A stretch of DNA of 60,107 nt from Samistivirus egole (IMGVR_UViG_2974779775_000001:1-60107), one strand, 5' to 3'; counted from the stretch's first letter, positions 1,635 through 20,459 are shown. The notes: generated by a model not told the origin, from the sequence alone. A program made the numbers and translations.

Positions 1635-2648
1635 TTAGCTGGCCAGGGCCAGGACCGCCTTACGGATGCGGTTCTTCTCGACGTTGACGACCGGGTCAAA
1701 GCCACTTGCGGCGATGAACAGGTTATCGACGTTGCCACCACGCGGCATCCGGTACCAGTCGATACGCTCCGTCAGAGCGTTCAGAGCACCCGCCATCGTG
1801 CCAGACAGAGACTGCGTGGTCTTGGGACCGTCACCCGTGTCGGTGAAGATGCCCATGAGGATGTCACGCTTCGACTCCCACTTGACCATGCTGCCCTTGA
1901 CATCCTTTTCGGGCTTGGGGTACAGGTCCTGAATCAGAGCATCGAACTTGTCCTTCGTGCACTGCACCTCGAACAGAGAGTTCATCTCACGCTCGAACTC
2001 ATCCGCGTAGGCGAACGTGATGTTCAGAGCCTCACGCGCAGCAGCCATGCGACCCTCGATGGTCTGCGTGTGGCGCATCTTGAACTGTTGCTTCACACCG
2101 TTACGGAGTGCAAAGTTCAGCGTGTTCTGACACACGACACGAACCGGGGTAATGCTTGCCTGAACTGCGACAGACCCGTCATGCGACGTGTTGACCAGAA
2201 GATACAGCTTGGTCACGTCATCGTCACCGACCTTGATGTCACGCCCGATGCTCAGCGAACCGAACACCACACGACCATCCTTGATAGAACCGGCAGTCTC
2301 CCAGGTTCCACCACCCGCAAGGATGCCGTCACCGAAGCCGAACAGCTCTTCGTTCTGGACGACCTTGTACCGCTCGCCCACCGTGGCCAGAACGTCATTC
2401 CGGCCGGTGAAGGGGTTGGTACGGACGACCATGTGAGGCTCCGTCACGAAGTCATAGGTGTCGGACACCAGACCCATGATTTCCTTGATGGACTCCAGAC
2501 GCACATCCCAGCCCGAAAGGTGGGCGAGAGACAGCATCTCCGAAGTGGTCAGCTCCCCCTCGAATACGGTTCCGAGGTTGTGCCACGCGGGCTCACTGCG
2601 AGTGGCGAACGCGACCTGACCCTTGGAACCAATCTCAAGACCGTGCAT
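1635..2648 (-). CDS. DUF932 family (phage/plasmid TIGR03299-like) protein
   Basis: AWHNLG...Y.VVQN.E.F...WETAGSIKDGRVVF...NTSHDGS...TPVRVVCQNTL motifs. AGGAGG RBS supports the start at 2648. Confidence 0.85.
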   Translation of the reverse strand: MHGLEIGSKGQVAFATRSEPAWHNLGTVFEGELTTSEMLSLAHLSGWDVRLESIKEIMGLVSDTYDFVTEPHMVVRTNPFTGRNDVLATVGERYKVVQNEELFGFGDGILAGGGTWETAGSIKDGRVVFGSLSIGRDIKVGDDDVTKLYLLVNTSHDGSVAVQASITPVRVVCQNTLNFALRNGVKQQFKMRHTQTIEGRMAAAREALNITFAYADEFEREMNSLFEVQCTKDKFDALIQDLYPKPEKDVKGSMVKWESKRDILMGIFTDTGDGPKTTQSLSGTMAGALNALTERIDWYRMPRGGNVDNLFIAASGFDPVVNVEKNRIRKAVLALAS

Positions 2649-18875: not shown

Positions 18876-18904
18876 AGTCTACAGATGTAACGGTTCTGTG
18901 TCAA
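18876..18904 (-). promoter_or_regulatory. Sigma70/HrdB-type promoter
   Basis: TTGACA-N17-TAGACT. Confidence 0.85.
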
Positions 18905-19071
18905 GACAGTACAGAGATGTACTTAACAATCTTCACAGAAGTTGCACCATCTGCTTCAAGCTCTGCCTTTTCAATGAGAGCTTCTGCATGAGAAATGATT
19001 TCATCTGTTTCTTTGAATTCTCCCTTAGTATTTCTATACTTTAGGAAATATCCTTTAACTTCTACAGACAT
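18901..19071 (-). CDS. Hypothetical protein (56 aa, MSVEVKGYFLKYRN...)
   Basis: Translated by hand; AT-rich; AAGGAAG upstream. Confidence 0.55.
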   Translation of the reverse strand: MSVEVKGYFLKYRNTKGEFKETDEIISHAEALIEKAELEADGATSVKIVKYISVLS

Positions 19072-19110
19072 TGTAATTATCTTCCTTGAGAGAGATTAGT
19101 AAGTATTTTC

Positions 19111-19250
19111 ATGAGGTTACGAAGTAACCTCATCTACTAACATCGTTAGATGTTAGTAGTTAATTTATATAGTCCCGCTATGAAATAGCGGGTCTTACAC
19201 ACCCCACCAGGTCGAAACTGGAAGCAGTGACCGCAGAGTGAGGTAAGACC
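19111..19250. repeat. Cluster of back-to-back inverted repeats
   Basis: ATGAGGTTAC-GAA-GTAACCTCAT (19111-33); CTACTAACATC-GTTA-GATGTTAGTAG (19134-59); CCCGCTAT-GAA-ATAGCGGG (19174-92); GGTCTTAC...GTAAGACC (19191-19250). Confidence 0.85.
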
Positions 19251-19290
19251 CTTGGAGAACCCTCAGACCGTTAGTCGGATTTTAGGCAAA

Positions 19291-19440
19291 TAAAAATGCC
19301 CCAGGAAGTTGCGACCCTTCCTGGGGCATTTAGACGTAAATGCACGATGTTGGTCGCAACAACATCCTGTTCTCCATTCAGGATAGCGCAACCAACATCG
19401 TGTGTCAAATCGAGTGTATTTGAGGCGTACCTCAACCACT
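19291..19440 (-). ncRNA. Putative ~150-nt structured sRNA or attenuator leader
   Basis: Flanked by a TTGACA/TACGAT promoter and a 15-bp terminator hairpin (19294-19331) with a U tract. Internal 12-bp stem 19343-54/19391-402 with an inner 6-bp stem. Confidence 0.55.
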
Positions 19441-19475
19441 GATATAATCGTAGCATAGCTCAAAGAGCATGTCAA
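19420..19475. promoter_or_regulatory. Overlapping divergent promoters with an inverted repeat on the rightward -35
   Basis: Plus: TTGAGG-N17-TATAAT (19420-48). Minus: TTGACA-N17-TACGAT (19475-47). TTGAG-GCGTAC-CTCAA palindrome at 19420-35. Confidence 0.75.
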
Positions 19476-19490
19476 CGACGAAGGGAAGCT

Positions 19491-20459
19491 ATGGATATCA
19501 GCTTTTCAACGATTCCGGGCAATTTGAACACGACCATTGGATATGGCGTGGCCGGATTCAACATGGTTCGCAGTCTACAGAAGCTAGGTCACAGAGTGCC
19601 CTTCGCTGACAAAAGCTGCCCCATTGAAATCTTCTTCTCCCAGCCAGATTACTGGGAATGGAGTAATCAGTTCAACTATCATATCGGTTATACTCCTTGG
19701 GAATCAACCCAACTGCCACCGGGCTGGCTTGAGAATATGAATCTTGCTGATGAGGTTTGGACGACATCAGAAATCATCAAGCGCTGGTACACAGCAGCCG
19801 GTGTGAAGAATGTCAAAGTTTACCCACATGGTATTGACCCAATCTGGACTCCGAAGAAGCGAAGCGTATATGAGAAGATGAAGTTTCTGCACATGGGAGA
19901 ACCAGCTCCTCGCAAGGGAGGACAAATGGCTGTTGACGCATTCCGTGCAGCATTTGGAGACAACCCTGATGTAGAGCTTACAGTAAAGGCTCACCGATTG
20001 AACAATGTGCGCCGGTACGAGAACGGAAGAATCATTGGTTCAATTGATGACTACAGCAATGTAAGACTTGTGACCCAAGAACTACCAGAAGACCATCTGG
20101 TCAGCTTTGTCAAGCAGCATCATGTCATGGTCTATCCAAGCTGGGGAGAGGGATTCGGTCTCATCCCATTCCAGGCCATCGCAACAGGAATGCCAACCAT
20201 TTGCACGGCTAAGTGGGCAGAATATAAGAACTATCTTGGACCACTTGGACTGGACTCAAAGCTTGCTGATTCACCTTGGCCCGGTACTCATCCAGGGAAG
20301 ATGCTTGAACCAAGCTTTGATGACCTTGTAGATAAGTACAGATATGCATACGACAACTTTGATGAACTGAGCAATGAATTCTACTTTCAGGCACCCTACT
20401 TGCACGCAGAGTACAACTGGGAAAAGCTCACCGAAGAAGCCTTCGCCCACTTGATTTAA
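19491..20459 (+). CDS. Glycosyltransferase family 4 (GT-B)
   Basis: TPWESTQLP, DEVWTTS, HG, RKG, YPSWGEGFGLIPFQAIATGMPTI. Confidence 0.88.
   Translation: MDISFSTIPGNLNTTIGYGVAGFNMVRSLQKLGHRVPFADKSCPIEIFFSQPDYWEWSNQFNYHIGYTPWESTQLPPGWLENMNLADEVWTTSEIIKRWYTAAGVKNVKVYPHGIDPIWTPKKRSVYEKMKFLHMGEPAPRKGGQMAVDAFRAAFGDNPDVELTVKAHRLNNVRRYENGRIIGSIDDYSNVRLVTQELPEDHLVSFVKQHHVMVYPSWGEGFGLIPFQAIATGMPTICTAKWAEYKNYLGPLGLDSKLADSPWPGTHPGKMLEPSFDDLVDKYRYAYDNFDELSNEFYFQAPYLHAEYNWEKLTEEAFAHLI

What the first reader, a model, noticed from the sequence alone, without database searches (positions are those of the whole stretch)
19291..19440. Attenuator/riboswitch-like RNA with mutually exclusive folds controlling the leftward operon
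From the TTGACA/TACGAT promoter the minus-strand RNA forms a 12-bp stem with an inner stem, then a 15-bp terminator. Two alternative pairings are visible. (i) GCAUUUA/UAAAUGC (19343-19326) sequesters the base of the terminator 5' arm. (ii) GUUGCGACC (19360-52) is exactly complementary to the terminator loop GGUCGCAAC (19316-08). Inference: a conditional terminator or a ~150-nt sRNA with a pseudoknot, gating a ~370-nt leader and downstream genes. Not recognised as any known family.
Basis: partly seen in the sequence, partly recalled or inferred. Interest (0 to 1): 0.7.

Follow-up and report, generated by a model that had tools for sequence, protein, structure and literature searches.

The report
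Terminator-loop capture RNA in Streptomyces phages
At the main divergent promoter region of a large Streptomyces phage, a short RNA ends in a transcription terminator whose loop base-pairs with a segment made about 45 bases earlier; 35 related phages keep this pairing in 17 different spellings, so it is a real, undescribed RNA element that probably sets how much transcription reads on into the leftward genes.

Summary
On the minus strand there is a near-consensus promoter (P1, 19475-19447). It is followed by a small hairpin, a 12-bp stem with an inner hairpin, and a 15-bp intrinsic terminator (19331-19294) with a U tract.

X (GUUGCGACC, 19360-19352) pairs with the terminator loop X' (GGUCGCAAC, 19316-19308). 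All 35 cluster-BE Streptomyces phage sequences examined keep 7-11 perfect pairs here, in 17 spellings, with no exception. No other terminator-like hairpin in this 135.6-kb genome has it.

Pairing (i) (GCAUUUA/UAAAUGC) is limited to close relatives and is not supported family-wide.

New findings:
- A second promoter (P2, 19408-19380) lies inside hairpin 2. Its key bases are the invariant columns of a hypervariable stretch, and X starts 7-13 nt after its predicted start.
- X' fills the whole loop and often includes the closing pairs, so the full X:X' helix and the full terminator cannot coexist.

Best reading (about 45%): X captures the loop during transcription and tunes read-through into a structured leader and a 56-codon gene. 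Rivals are a mature pseudoknotted or self-recognising small RNA. A metabolite riboswitch is unlikely.

No Rfam family matches.

The parts
19447..19475 (-). Promoter P1: TTGACA, 17 nt, TACGAT. Predicted start near 19440.
   Evidence: Scores 10 of 12 against consensus. It is the only copy of this promoter in the window and is present in all relatives. Activity is inferred, not measured.
19420..19448 (+). Rightward promoter for the glycosyltransferase gene: TTGAGG, 17 nt, TGaTATAAT. Its -10 overlaps the -10 of P1 by 2 bp.
   Evidence: Found. It explains why the RNA's first ~45 nt (AUAUCAG...UCAA) contain most of the invariant columns.
19420..19435 (-). Hairpin 1: UUGAGG-UACG-CCUCAA.
   Evidence: Present in the MFE fold. 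93% of cells are paired and 3 of 6 pairs change on both sides.
19380..19408 (-). Internal promoter P2: TTGACA, 17 nt, TATCCT. Predicted start near 19373, inside the loop of the inner hairpin.
   Evidence: Found. In 22 divergent sequences the invariant columns of this hypervariable stretch are the -35 T, T, G and C, the -14 G, and the -12 T, -11 A and -7 T. All 28 unique sequences keep -35, 17-18 nt, TAnnnT, and 25 of them have the extended TG.
19343..19402 (-). Hairpin 2: outer stem 19402-19391 with 19354-19343, asymmetric internal loop, inner hairpin 19384-19364. Only RNA started at P1 contains all of it.
   Evidence: Seen in folds. The architecture recurs in every clade with different sequence. 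On the MAFFT alignment the outer stem is 62% paired and the inner stem 70%. Two relatives (LukeCage, UViG_3300010218) have a replaced 5' arm.
19352..19360 (-). X: GUUGCGACC, on the 3' side of hairpin 2. It is the partner of the terminator loop.
   Evidence: Exact complement of 19316-19308. It sits 109-118 nt from the P1 -35 in all relatives, in 17 spellings.
19326..19343 (-). It overlaps the base of the terminator's 5' arm.
   Evidence: Present here and in close relatives. Not supported across the family. Other clades have an independent linker hairpin or none.
19288..19331 (-). Intrinsic terminator: 15-bp stem (8 G-C pairs), 8-nt loop, UUUUUAUUU.
   Evidence: Found. 11 of 14 stem pairs change on both sides among relatives. 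G-U pairs in relatives such as Bmoc and Mildred21 show the structure is specific to this strand.
19308..19316 (-). X': GGUCGCAAC. It is the whole terminator loop plus the first base of the 3' arm.
   Evidence: In 22 relatives X' leaves 0-2 loop bases free on each side, and in 12 of them it includes closing-pair bases.
19072..19287 (-). Structured leader reached only by read-through. It holds a conserved block (about 19296-19162) followed by two perfect hairpins.
   Evidence: RNAalifold finds 31 pairs, 16 of them with compensatory changes and many G-U pairs. No sigma-70-like promoter lies between the terminator and 19072.
18901..19071 (-). First gene downstream: 56 codons, function unknown (phrog_8915). 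The next promoter is at 18904, ahead of an SLT transglycosylase gene.

Best explanation
This is a self-contained RNA control module at the head of the leftward transcription unit of cluster-BE Streptomyces phages.

Two tandem host-type promoters feed it: P1, and P2 67 bp downstream. Both run into one intrinsic terminator.

A segment X, made 7-13 nt after the predicted P2 start (about 80 nt after the P1 start), is complementary to the entire apical loop X' of that terminator. X' leaves the polymerase before the terminator's 3' arm does. X can therefore capture the loop first, giving a 7-11 bp helix that encloses the terminator's 5' arm.

X' is flanked directly by both stem arms. The full X:X' helix and the fully closed terminator hairpin therefore exclude each other sterically. 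The module has two states, and loop capture most likely delays or weakens hairpin closure. This would set the fraction of transcripts that read on into the structured ~220-nt leader and the 56-codon gene.

In the window's own clade, RNA started at P1 hides X in hairpin 2, while RNA started at P2 leaves X free. Here the choice of promoter would decide between termination and read-through.

Shown: the promoters' conservation, both helices (by covariation), their overlap, and the order of synthesis. Inferred: that loop capture lowers termination, and that P2 fires.
For: 1. X:X' is conserved as 7-11 perfect pairs in all 35 relatives, in 17 spellings. Per-sequence shuffle p is 0.03 or lower.
2. On an unfitted MAFFT alignment the X:X' helix is 87% paired and 6 of 9 pairs change on both sides. 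The terminator stem shows 11 of 14 such pairs. 0 of 500 shuffles reach the observed covariation score, and slid controls give about 40% pairing.
3. The feature is unique among 41 terminator-like hairpins of the genome.
4. X' occupies the whole loop. It leaves 0-2 free bases per side and overlaps closing pairs in 12 of 22 relatives. By the established stereochemistry of H-type pseudoknots, a connecting loop of 0 nt cannot span an 8-9 bp helix.
5. In nascent RNA ending at X', the X:X' helix has probability 0.98 or higher in every P2-started RNA (ddG -5 to -16 kcal/mol). In the window clade, P1-started RNA sequesters X (P = 0.00, ddG +7).
6. The key bases of P2 are the invariant columns of a hypervariable stretch.
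7. The leader after the terminator is a covarying minus-strand RNA structure, with no sigma-70-like promoter of its own. Read-through transcripts therefore probably exist and matter.
8. In six Peebs-type relatives, X' again sits in the loop of the first terminator-like hairpin, which is followed by UUGUUUU.
Against: - No transcript data exist. Start sites, 3' ends and termination efficiency are all predictions.
- At equilibrium the nested terminator state is 4-16 kcal/mol more stable than the X:X' state. Any effect must therefore be kinetic or steric, and its sign could be the opposite (assisting folding of the terminator).
- A partial pseudoknot (lower terminator stem plus X:X') may still terminate.
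- Sequestration of X in P1-started RNA is not general. The ddG ranges from -12 to +9 kcal/mol among relatives, and close relatives differ.
- In Peebs-type relatives a second strong terminator follows. Loop capture at the first one alone could not give read-through there.
- No signal or factor that would flip the switch has been identified.
Confidence: 0.45

Rival explanations
1. The functional product is the terminated small RNA itself: about 150 nt from P1 and about 80 nt from P2. X:X' serves the mature molecule in one of two ways.
(a) It acts as an address for pairing between molecules. The exposed terminator loop of finished RNA would pair with X of nascent leaders of the same phage and so feed back on termination, as in P4 CI RNA or IsrK.
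(b) It acts as a static pseudoknot that makes a compact, stable RNA with some other job.
For: - The module runs from promoter to terminator and is exchanged as a unit. The same upstream module is found with three different downstream blocks among relatives.
- X' is displayed in a hairpin loop, and X lies near the 5' end of P2-started RNA. These are the usual places for antisense recognition.
- In the Jay2Jay-type clade, X and X' differ at 0.30 per site while the flanking stems differ at 0.03-0.07: five spellings in nine phages. This is the pattern of a specificity determinant.
- Terminated leader RNAs that act on their own read-through transcripts are known (IsrK, and P4 CI as summarised in PMC4825925). 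Terminator loops can drive sRNA regulation (PMC11979758).
Against: - No second target site was found. The only other exact 9-mer in 135.6 kb is at the chance expectation of about 1.
- Hypervariability is not general. In the Peebs-type clade, X is less variable than its flanks, and in the window-type clade it is about equal to the terminator stem.
- Intramolecular pairing is kinetically favoured over pairing in trans.
- These phages are regarded as virulent, so classical immunity has no obvious place (own knowledge).
- X' often includes closing pairs. This argues against a static pseudoknot that coexists with the full hairpin.
Confidence: 0.3
2. It is one domain of a larger folded leader RNA of about 370 nt. 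In this RNA, hairpin loops dock onto distant segments as tertiary contacts. The 'terminator' would be mainly a structural hairpin, and the whole fold would control stability, processing or translation of the 56-codon gene's message.
For: - The downstream block is a covarying RNA structure.
- In Peebs-type relatives the loop of the second terminator is complementary to the core of that downstream block. The match is 10 nt in Peebs, Riptide and Daubenski (UAAGACCCUU with AAGGGUCUUA at +43/+44, shuffle p 0.002 or lower) and only 7 nt in Wofford and Stanimal (GGGTCTT, p about 0.08-0.09). Naboo has a different pair at the matching place (GGUGAAA with UUUCACC).
- Long-range loop docking therefore recurs in this leader.
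Against: - The upstream module and the downstream block assort independently among relatives (three block types). This does not fit one co-folding unit.
- X:X' lies wholly inside the upstream module.
- The hairpin has every mark of a real terminator, including a conserved U tract.
Confidence: 0.12
3. It is a metabolite- or ion-sensing riboswitch whose aptamer is hairpin 2 and whose expression platform is the terminator.
For: A two-state leader ahead of a terminator, with a pseudoknot-like contact, resembles the layout of preQ1, ZTP or fluoride riboswitches (own knowledge).
Against: - No Rfam match even at E up to 10.
- The invariant columns coincide with promoter elements, plus one stem base and one U-tract base.
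- Hairpin 2, X and the linker are hypervariable in sequence and length. There are no conserved unpaired nucleotides for a binding pocket.
Confidence: 0.03
4. X and X' act at the DNA level, as an inverted repeat bound by a dimeric phage protein, or as part of a replication origin or cruciform at the strand switch.
For: - The element lies at the divergence of the two main transcription units, among three promoters.
- Another reader proposed an origin for the adjacent AT-rich hairpin block (note e1-5438653).
Against: - The distance from X to the X' loop varies from 23 to 42 nt among relatives, which does not fit a fixed protein geometry.
- X' is always exactly at the apex of a hairpin.
- The surrounding helices contain G-U pairs that would be A-C mismatches on the other strand.
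- 17 different spellings would require 17 matching protein specificities.
Confidence: 0.05

Closest known systems
Satellite phage P4 immunity: CI RNA (seqB) pairing with seqA and seqC of the same leader (Sabbattini et al. 1995, PMC176756; summarised in PMC4825925)
   Same: An untranslated leader just after an early promoter carries short mutually complementary segments. Pairing decides whether transcription terminates prematurely. The regulator and its target lie on the same transcript.
   Different: - In P4 the regulator is cut out of the transcript and acts in trans in a lysogen, on two targets flanking it.
- Here there is one partner pair.
- X' is the loop of the terminator itself.
- No processing is known.
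- The phages are considered virulent.
- No Rfam hit to related families.
IsrK of the Gifsy-1 prophage (PMC4825925)
   Same: One promoter gives a short terminated RNA and a read-through mRNA. The short form pairs with the long form and changes its fold.
   Different: - IsrK controls translation of the downstream genes, not termination.
- It has no terminator-loop pairing.
- There is no sequence or Rfam similarity.
Transcriptional riboswitches with a pseudoknot that competes with the terminator (preQ1-I, ZTP, fluoride; own knowledge; ZTP folding pathway in bioRxiv 10.1101/521930)
   Same: A long-range helix that forms earlier in transcription competes with closure of an intrinsic terminator.
   Different: - In those, the competing strand overlaps the terminator's 5' arm and a ligand stabilises a conserved aptamer.
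- Here the captured part is the apical loop.
- There is no conserved core.
   Same: An internal or bulge loop and a hairpin loop of one small phage RNA are complementary. They covary among relatives that share little sequence.
   Different: - pRNA loops pair over 4 nt, between molecules, to build a ring on the packaging motor of small podoviruses.
- Here the pairing is 7-11 nt, at an early promoter of a 135-kb siphovirus.
- One partner is a terminator loop.
IncI-alpha / IncB plasmid repZ/repA leader pseudoknot (own knowledge; lead from scan note e1-490995)
   Same: A hairpin loop in a leader pairs with a distant segment of the same RNA, and this switches expression.
   Different: - There the distant segment adjoins the ribosome-binding site and activates translation, and an antisense RNA blocks the loop.
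- Here X lies about 280 nt upstream of the next start codon.
- No antisense promoter was seen.
'Kissing-loop terminator leader' noted earlier by this scan in AT-rich phages (e1-3291353, unchecked AI note)
   Same: The loop of a terminator hairpin pairs with an upstream element of a ~105-nt leader, with a dozen covarying 'address' types and no Rfam family.
   Different: - It is on other phages and other sequence.
- The upstream partner there is a hairpin loop. Here it is an internal-loop or 5' single-stranded segment, with an internal promoter.
- I did not examine that locus.

Membership tests
Any curated RNA family (Rfam 15) | Covariance-model score at or above the family's gathering threshold | tested here: not met
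   The only hit in the window and in 8 related loci is tRNA. At E up to 10, only sub-threshold terminator look-alikes appear: NsiR1 18.7 bits against a threshold of 39, and Spot 42 17.8 against 80.
Intrinsic (factor-independent) terminator | G+C-rich hairpin immediately followed by a U tract | tested here: met
   15-bp stem with 8 G-C pairs, then UUUUUAUUU. The stem covaries (11 of 14 pairs) and the U-tract columns are nearly invariant.
Intrinsic (factor-independent) terminator | Transcripts actually end there | not testable with these tools
   No transcript data are available.
Sigma-70 / HrdB-type promoter (P1, P2) | -35 TTGACA and -10 TAnnnT spaced 16-18 bp apart, conserved among relatives | tested here: met
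   P1 and P2 each score 10 of 12. P2's -35, -14 G, -12 T, -11 A and -7 T are invariant within a hypervariable stretch. Activity was not tested.
H-type RNA pseudoknot | Two helices with crossing strands, each supported independently | tested here: met
   X:X' crosses the terminator stem (and the outer stem of hairpin 2). X:X' and the terminator stem covary strongly; the outer stem has weaker support (62% of cells paired, 3 of 9 pairs changed on both sides).
H-type RNA pseudoknot | Both helices can form at once (connecting loops long enough) | tested here: not met
   X' leaves 0-2 free loop bases per side and overlaps closing pairs in 12 of 22 relatives. Full formation of both helices is sterically excluded; only partial versions could coexist. 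This is an inference from known pseudoknot geometry.
Metabolite riboswitch | Conserved unpaired nucleotides forming an aptamer core | tested here: not met
   The invariant columns coincide with promoter elements, plus one stem base and one U-tract base.
P4-type leader immunity RNA (CI / seqA-seqB-seqC) | Complementary segments within one leader transcript that control premature termination | tested here: inconclusive
   Complementarity beside a terminator is present and covaries. Control of termination was not tested.
P4-type leader immunity RNA (CI / seqA-seqB-seqC) | Two target copies flanking the regulator, and a processed stable RNA | tested here: not met
   Only one partner was found. The X-like GUUUCGACC at 19218-19210 does not covary with X' among relatives, and there is no further exact copy in the genome beyond chance. 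Processing is not testable here.
Translational attenuator (leader peptide) | A conserved short reading frame over the switch region | tested here: not met
   The window has GGAG-N6-AUG followed by 11 codons covering X (read). X differs in length by 1-2 nt among relatives, and several relatives lack the AUG or a Shine-Dalgarno sequence.

The most novel reading that the evidence does not exclude
X/X' is a phage-specific address. The terminated small RNA, displaying X' in its terminator loop, pairs in trans with X on nascent leaders carrying the same address. This would switch early leftward transcription of its own kind, and of co-infecting phages with the same address, but not of phages with a different one. 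It would be an RNA-only self/non-self discrimination or exclusion system in virulent actinophages, evolving by paired changes like the P4 and P1/P7 immunity RNAs.
Probability: 0.15. Interest if true: 0.85.

Novelty: new variant of a known kind. Interest (0 to 1): 0.6.

Why it matters
Leaders that choose between termination and read-through by alternative RNA folds are well known. A design in which the apical loop of the terminator is the captured element is not in Rfam, and I did not find it described in the papers I could search. Here that design sits behind tandem promoters that give the RNA different 5' ends, and it is kept in 17 spellings.

The element lies at the main divergent control region of a large family of Streptomyces phages: more than 80 sequenced genomes, some of them helpers of satellite phages. 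Almost nothing is known about how these phages time their genes.

If loop capture tunes termination, it is a compact, programmable part, because one changeable 8-9 bp address sets a terminator's strength. If it works in trans, it would be RNA-based self-recognition in a virulent phage.

Both readings can be tested directly with compensatory mutants.

Tried and rejected
- Rfam at gathering and at permissive thresholds, on the window and on 8 relatives, gave nothing but tRNA.
- A scan of viral contigs with the 14-mer TACGATTATATCAG was too unspecific. It returned 116 mostly unrelated stretches and was not used.
- Search for trans targets: the only other exact copy of the 9-mer in the 135.6-kb genome (84645) is at chance expectation. 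The X-like GUUUCGACC at 19218-19210 does not covary with X'.
- Pairing (i) as a conserved antiterminator was rejected family-wide. It is kept only as a clade-specific linker hairpin.
- Leader-peptide attenuation: the window has a plausible 11-codon frame over X, but the frame, start codon and Shine-Dalgarno sequence are not conserved.
- 'P1-started RNA always hides X' was rejected as a general rule. The ddG ranges from -12 to +9 kcal/mol. It holds for the window's clade.
- 'X/X' is always the fastest-evolving part' was rejected. It is true only in the Jay2Jay-type clade.
- An equilibrium antiterminator was rejected. The terminator state is 4-16 kcal/mol more stable.
- A protein-coding reading of the 61- and 70-codon frames over the element was rejected. 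Relatives differ by indels that are not multiples of three, and the frames start upstream of the promoter's -10.

Full report
**What the window is.** The region matches only Streptomyces phages of cluster BE (Stanwilliamsviridae, Boydwoodruffvirinae). 84-87 records match at 68-96% identity; the best are Braelyn and Evy. The window is the first 60 kb of a 135,653-bp virus record with direct terminal repeats.

The finding lies in a ~420-nt gap with no annotated gene. On one side is a rightward glycosyltransferase gene (19491-20459, GT4-type). On the other are leftward genes: a 56-codon gene of unknown function (19071-18901, phrog_8915), an SLT transglycosylase, an HNH nuclease and a tRNA. Relatives annotate the gap the same way.

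**Check of the observation.**
- P1: TTGACA-17-TACGAT, 19475-19447.
- A small hairpin, 19435-19420.
- A 12-bp stem (19402-19391 with 19354-19343) enclosing a 6-bp inner hairpin.
- A 15-bp terminator (19331-19294) followed by UUUUUAUUU.
- The two alternative pairings.

The 176-nt RNA folds far better than shuffles (-73.4 against -42.9 +/- 4.3 kcal/mol, z = -7.1). The 9-mer and its complement occur only here in the window. I listed 41 terminator-like hairpins in the whole genome. This is the only one whose loop is complementary (9 nt) to its own upstream 150 nt; all others reach 5 nt at most.

**Pairing (ii) is real.** I gathered the homologous gap from 34 related phage or viral-contig sequences. 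In each, I took the loop of the first terminator-like hairpin and searched the upstream RNA for its longest exact complement.
- All sequences have 7-11 perfect Watson-Crick pairs.
- The upstream partner X always starts 109-118 nt after the P1 -35.
- There are 17 different spellings. Examples are GUUGCGACC, GAUGCGACC, GCUGCGACC, GCCGCAAC, GCUGGGACC, CUCCACCU, GCUCGCCCC, GCUGGCCC, GUCGCACC, GCUGCACC, GUGGCACC, GCUAGGCCC, CGCUGCCAC, GCUCCACCC, CUGGCAG and CUGGCGG.
- Each spelling has the exact complement in the loop. Per-sequence shuffle p is 0.03 or lower, mostly 0.002 or lower.

On a plain MAFFT alignment of 22 distinct sequences, not fitted to any structure, this helix is 87% paired and 6 of its 9 pairs change on both sides. 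The terminator stem has 11 of 14 such pairs. 0 of 500 shuffles reach the observed covariation score, and sliding the partner by 1-3 columns drops pairing from 78% to 35-49%.

G-U pairs in the stems of relatives and in the downstream leader show that the constraint acts on the minus-strand RNA, not on duplex DNA.

**Pairing (i) is not general.** The GCAUUUA/UAAAUGC hairpin recurs in the window's near relatives, sometimes with changed letters. Across the family only 48% of cells pair, which is no better than slid controls. Other clades have an unrelated self-contained linker hairpin, or no linker structure at all. The MAFFT alignment of this linker is poor, so the test is weak. Direct reading of the sequences agrees with it.

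1. A second promoter, P2 (TTGACA 19408-19403, 17 nt, TATCCT 19385-19380), lies inside hairpin 2.
   - This stretch is otherwise hypervariable. Its invariant columns are exactly the bases that matter most in a sigma-70-type promoter: the -35 T, T, G and C, the -14 G, and the -12 T, -11 A and -7 T.
   - All 28 unique sequences keep the two hexamers 17-18 bp apart, and 25 have the extended TG.
   - The predicted start falls in the loop of the inner hairpin. RNA started at P2 would lack hairpin 1 and the 5' half of hairpin 2, and would carry X 7-13 nt from its 5' end.

2. A rightward promoter (TTGAGG-17-TGaTATAAT, 19420-19448) overlaps the -10 of P1 by 2 bp. This explains why the first 45 nt of the P1 RNA are nearly invariant. 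Three promoters therefore share about 100 bp.

3. The only invariant columns of the whole RNA outside promoter elements are one stem base and one U-tract base. There is no conserved unpaired core.

**Geometry.** X' is not merely inside the loop; it is the loop. In 22 relatives it leaves 0-2 free bases on either side, and in 12 it includes one or two closing-pair bases.

In pseudoknot terms, X:X' and the terminator stem are crossing helices with connecting loops of 0-1 nt. By the known stereochemistry of H-type pseudoknots, such loops cannot span an 8-9 bp helix. The full X:X' helix and the fully closed terminator therefore exclude each other. Only a shortened version of one can coexist with the other. 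This step is an inference, not a computation.

Selection keeps up to 11 perfect pairs, including closing-pair bases. This argues that the full helix exists in a state where the apex of the terminator is open, which means the element has two states.

**Order and energetics.**
- In nascent RNA ending at X', before the terminator's 3' arm exists, X:X' is the predicted fold of every P2-started RNA (probability 0.98 or higher; ddG -5 to -16 kcal/mol).
- For P1-started RNA the result depends on the clade. In the window, Evy, Braelyn, Bmoc and one metagenomic relative, hairpin 2 holds X (ddG +7 to +9). In Samisti12, Mildred21, Yaboi, Tomas and others, X:X' wins. Several are near balance.
- In full-length RNA the nested terminator state is 4-16 kcal/mol more stable than the nested X:X' state.

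X:X' therefore cannot be an equilibrium antiterminator. Its effect, if any, is kinetic or steric, during the short interval in which the hairpin must close.

**Does read-through matter?** The 220 nt after the terminator contain a conserved block (about 19296-19162). RNAalifold folds it with 31 pairs, 16 of them with compensatory changes and many G-U pairs. No sigma-70-like promoter lies between the terminator and the start codon at 19071. Unless an unrecognised promoter exists, this structured leader and the 56-codon gene are reached only through the terminator.

The gated unit is short, because a further consensus promoter lies at 18904.

The upstream module and the downstream block assort independently. 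At least three unrelated downstream blocks follow the same kind of module in different relatives. The module is therefore self-contained.

**A variant architecture.** Seven relatives (Peebs, Larnav, Riptide, Daubenski, Wofford, Stanimal and Naboo) keep X:X' (CUGGCAG or CUGGCGG). In them, X' sits in a weaker first hairpin followed by UUGUUUU, and a second strong terminator follows.

In Peebs, Riptide and Daubenski the loop of that second terminator is complementary over 10 nt to the core of the downstream block (UAAGACCCUU with AAGGGUCUUA, 43-44 nt after the terminator, shuffle p 0.002 or lower). In Wofford and Stanimal the exact match is only 7 nt (GGGTCTT, shuffle p about 0.08-0.09). Naboo has a different pair at the matching place (GGUGAAA with UUUCACC). 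Larnav's downstream pairing was not tested. Docking of terminator loops onto distant leader segments is thus a recurring theme in this region.

**Explanations.**

*Best reading (about 45%).* The module is a co-transcriptional switch. X captures the terminator loop as soon as the loop is made, and this interferes with closure of the hairpin. The result would set the read-through fraction. In the window's clade the 5' end of the RNA (P1 or P2) decides whether X is free.

*Main rival (about 30%).* The terminated RNA is the functional product, and X/X' is used between molecules or as part of its mature fold.
- For it: in the Jay2Jay-type clade, X and X' differ at 0.30 per site while the flanking stems differ at 0.03-0.07. 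This looks like a specificity determinant.
- Against it: the pattern is absent in the other two clades, and no second target exists in the genome.

*Third reading (about 12%).* The module is one domain of a larger folded leader.

*Unlikely.* A metabolite riboswitch (about 3%) and a DNA-level site (about 5%) are unlikely for the reasons above. In addition, the distance from X to the X' loop varies from 23 to 42 nt.

**Comparison with known systems.** No Rfam family matches. In principle the element works most like leader RNAs whose internal complementary segments decide premature termination. Examples are P4 CI RNA with seqA/seqC (Sabbattini 1995, as summarised in PMC4825925) and riboswitch platforms in which an early long-range helix competes with a terminator. 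It is not a member of either group:
- there is one partner pair, not two;
- no processing is known;
- there is no conserved core;
- the captured element is the apical loop, not an arm.

IsrK (PMC4825925) shows that a terminated leader RNA can act on its own read-through form. Terminator loops can drive sRNA regulation (PMC11979758). phi29 pRNA is the precedent for covarying complementary loops within one phage RNA (own knowledge).

An earlier unchecked note of this scan (e1-3291353) describes a leader in other AT-rich phages in which a 5' hairpin loop pairs with a terminator loop in a dozen covarying spellings. If that note holds, loop capture of terminators may be a wider phage design. I did not examine that locus.

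**Verdict.** The mechanism is inferred and its sign is unknown. It is a new variant of a known kind of control, worth a simple compensatory-mutant test.

Noticed in passing
window 19162-19296 (minus strand): The block after the terminator is a covarying RNA structure. It contains the nearly invariant GAGGGUUCUCCAAGGGUCUUACC and folds with 31 pairs, 16 of them compensatory, with many G-U pairs. It is followed by the invariant GGGACUAUAUAAAUUAAC, which occurs once in the genome. No Rfam match. Relatives carry at least three unrelated blocks in this slot.
   Followed up: partly
L004:2250-2330 (Peebs), also L022, L006, L016, L026, L030: Peebs-type relatives have a second strong terminator. In Peebs, Riptide and Daubenski its loop (UAAGACCCUU) is complementary over 10 nt to the core of the downstream block (AAGGGUCUUA, about 44 nt after the terminator). 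In Wofford and Stanimal the exact match is only 7 nt (shuffle p about 0.08-0.09). Naboo has a different pair (GGUGAAA with UUUCACC) at the matching place. This is a second case of a terminator loop docking on a distant leader segment.
   Followed up: partly
window 19420-19475: The leftward promoter P1 and the rightward glycosyltransferase promoter are back to back, and their -10 hexamers overlap by 2 bp (19447-19448). RNA polymerase can probably occupy only one at a time. P2, 67 bp downstream of P1, does not overlap them.
   Followed up: no
window 19326-19373 (minus strand): In the window, GGAG-N6-AUG opens an 11-codon frame (MLLRPTSCIYV) that covers X and stops at the UAA overlapping the base of the terminator. 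The frame is not conserved in relatives, so it is probably fortuitous.
   Followed up: partly
window 19111-19159 (minus strand): Two perfect 10-11 bp hairpins abut just upstream of the 56-codon gene's ribosome-binding site (CUACUAACAUC...GAUGUUAGUAG and AUGAGGUUAC...GUAACCUCAU). Relatives keep them with changed letters. Another first-reader note (e1-5438653) covers them.
   Followed up: no
L011 (LukeCage) and L014 (UViG_3300010218), about 2400-2440 minus strand: These two relatives have a replaced 5' arm of hairpin 2 that no longer pairs with the conserved 3' arm (AACAUCGUG). It forms its own small hairpin instead (CACG...CGUG). X:X' and P2 are intact. This looks like a recombination joint inside the module.
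   Followed up: no
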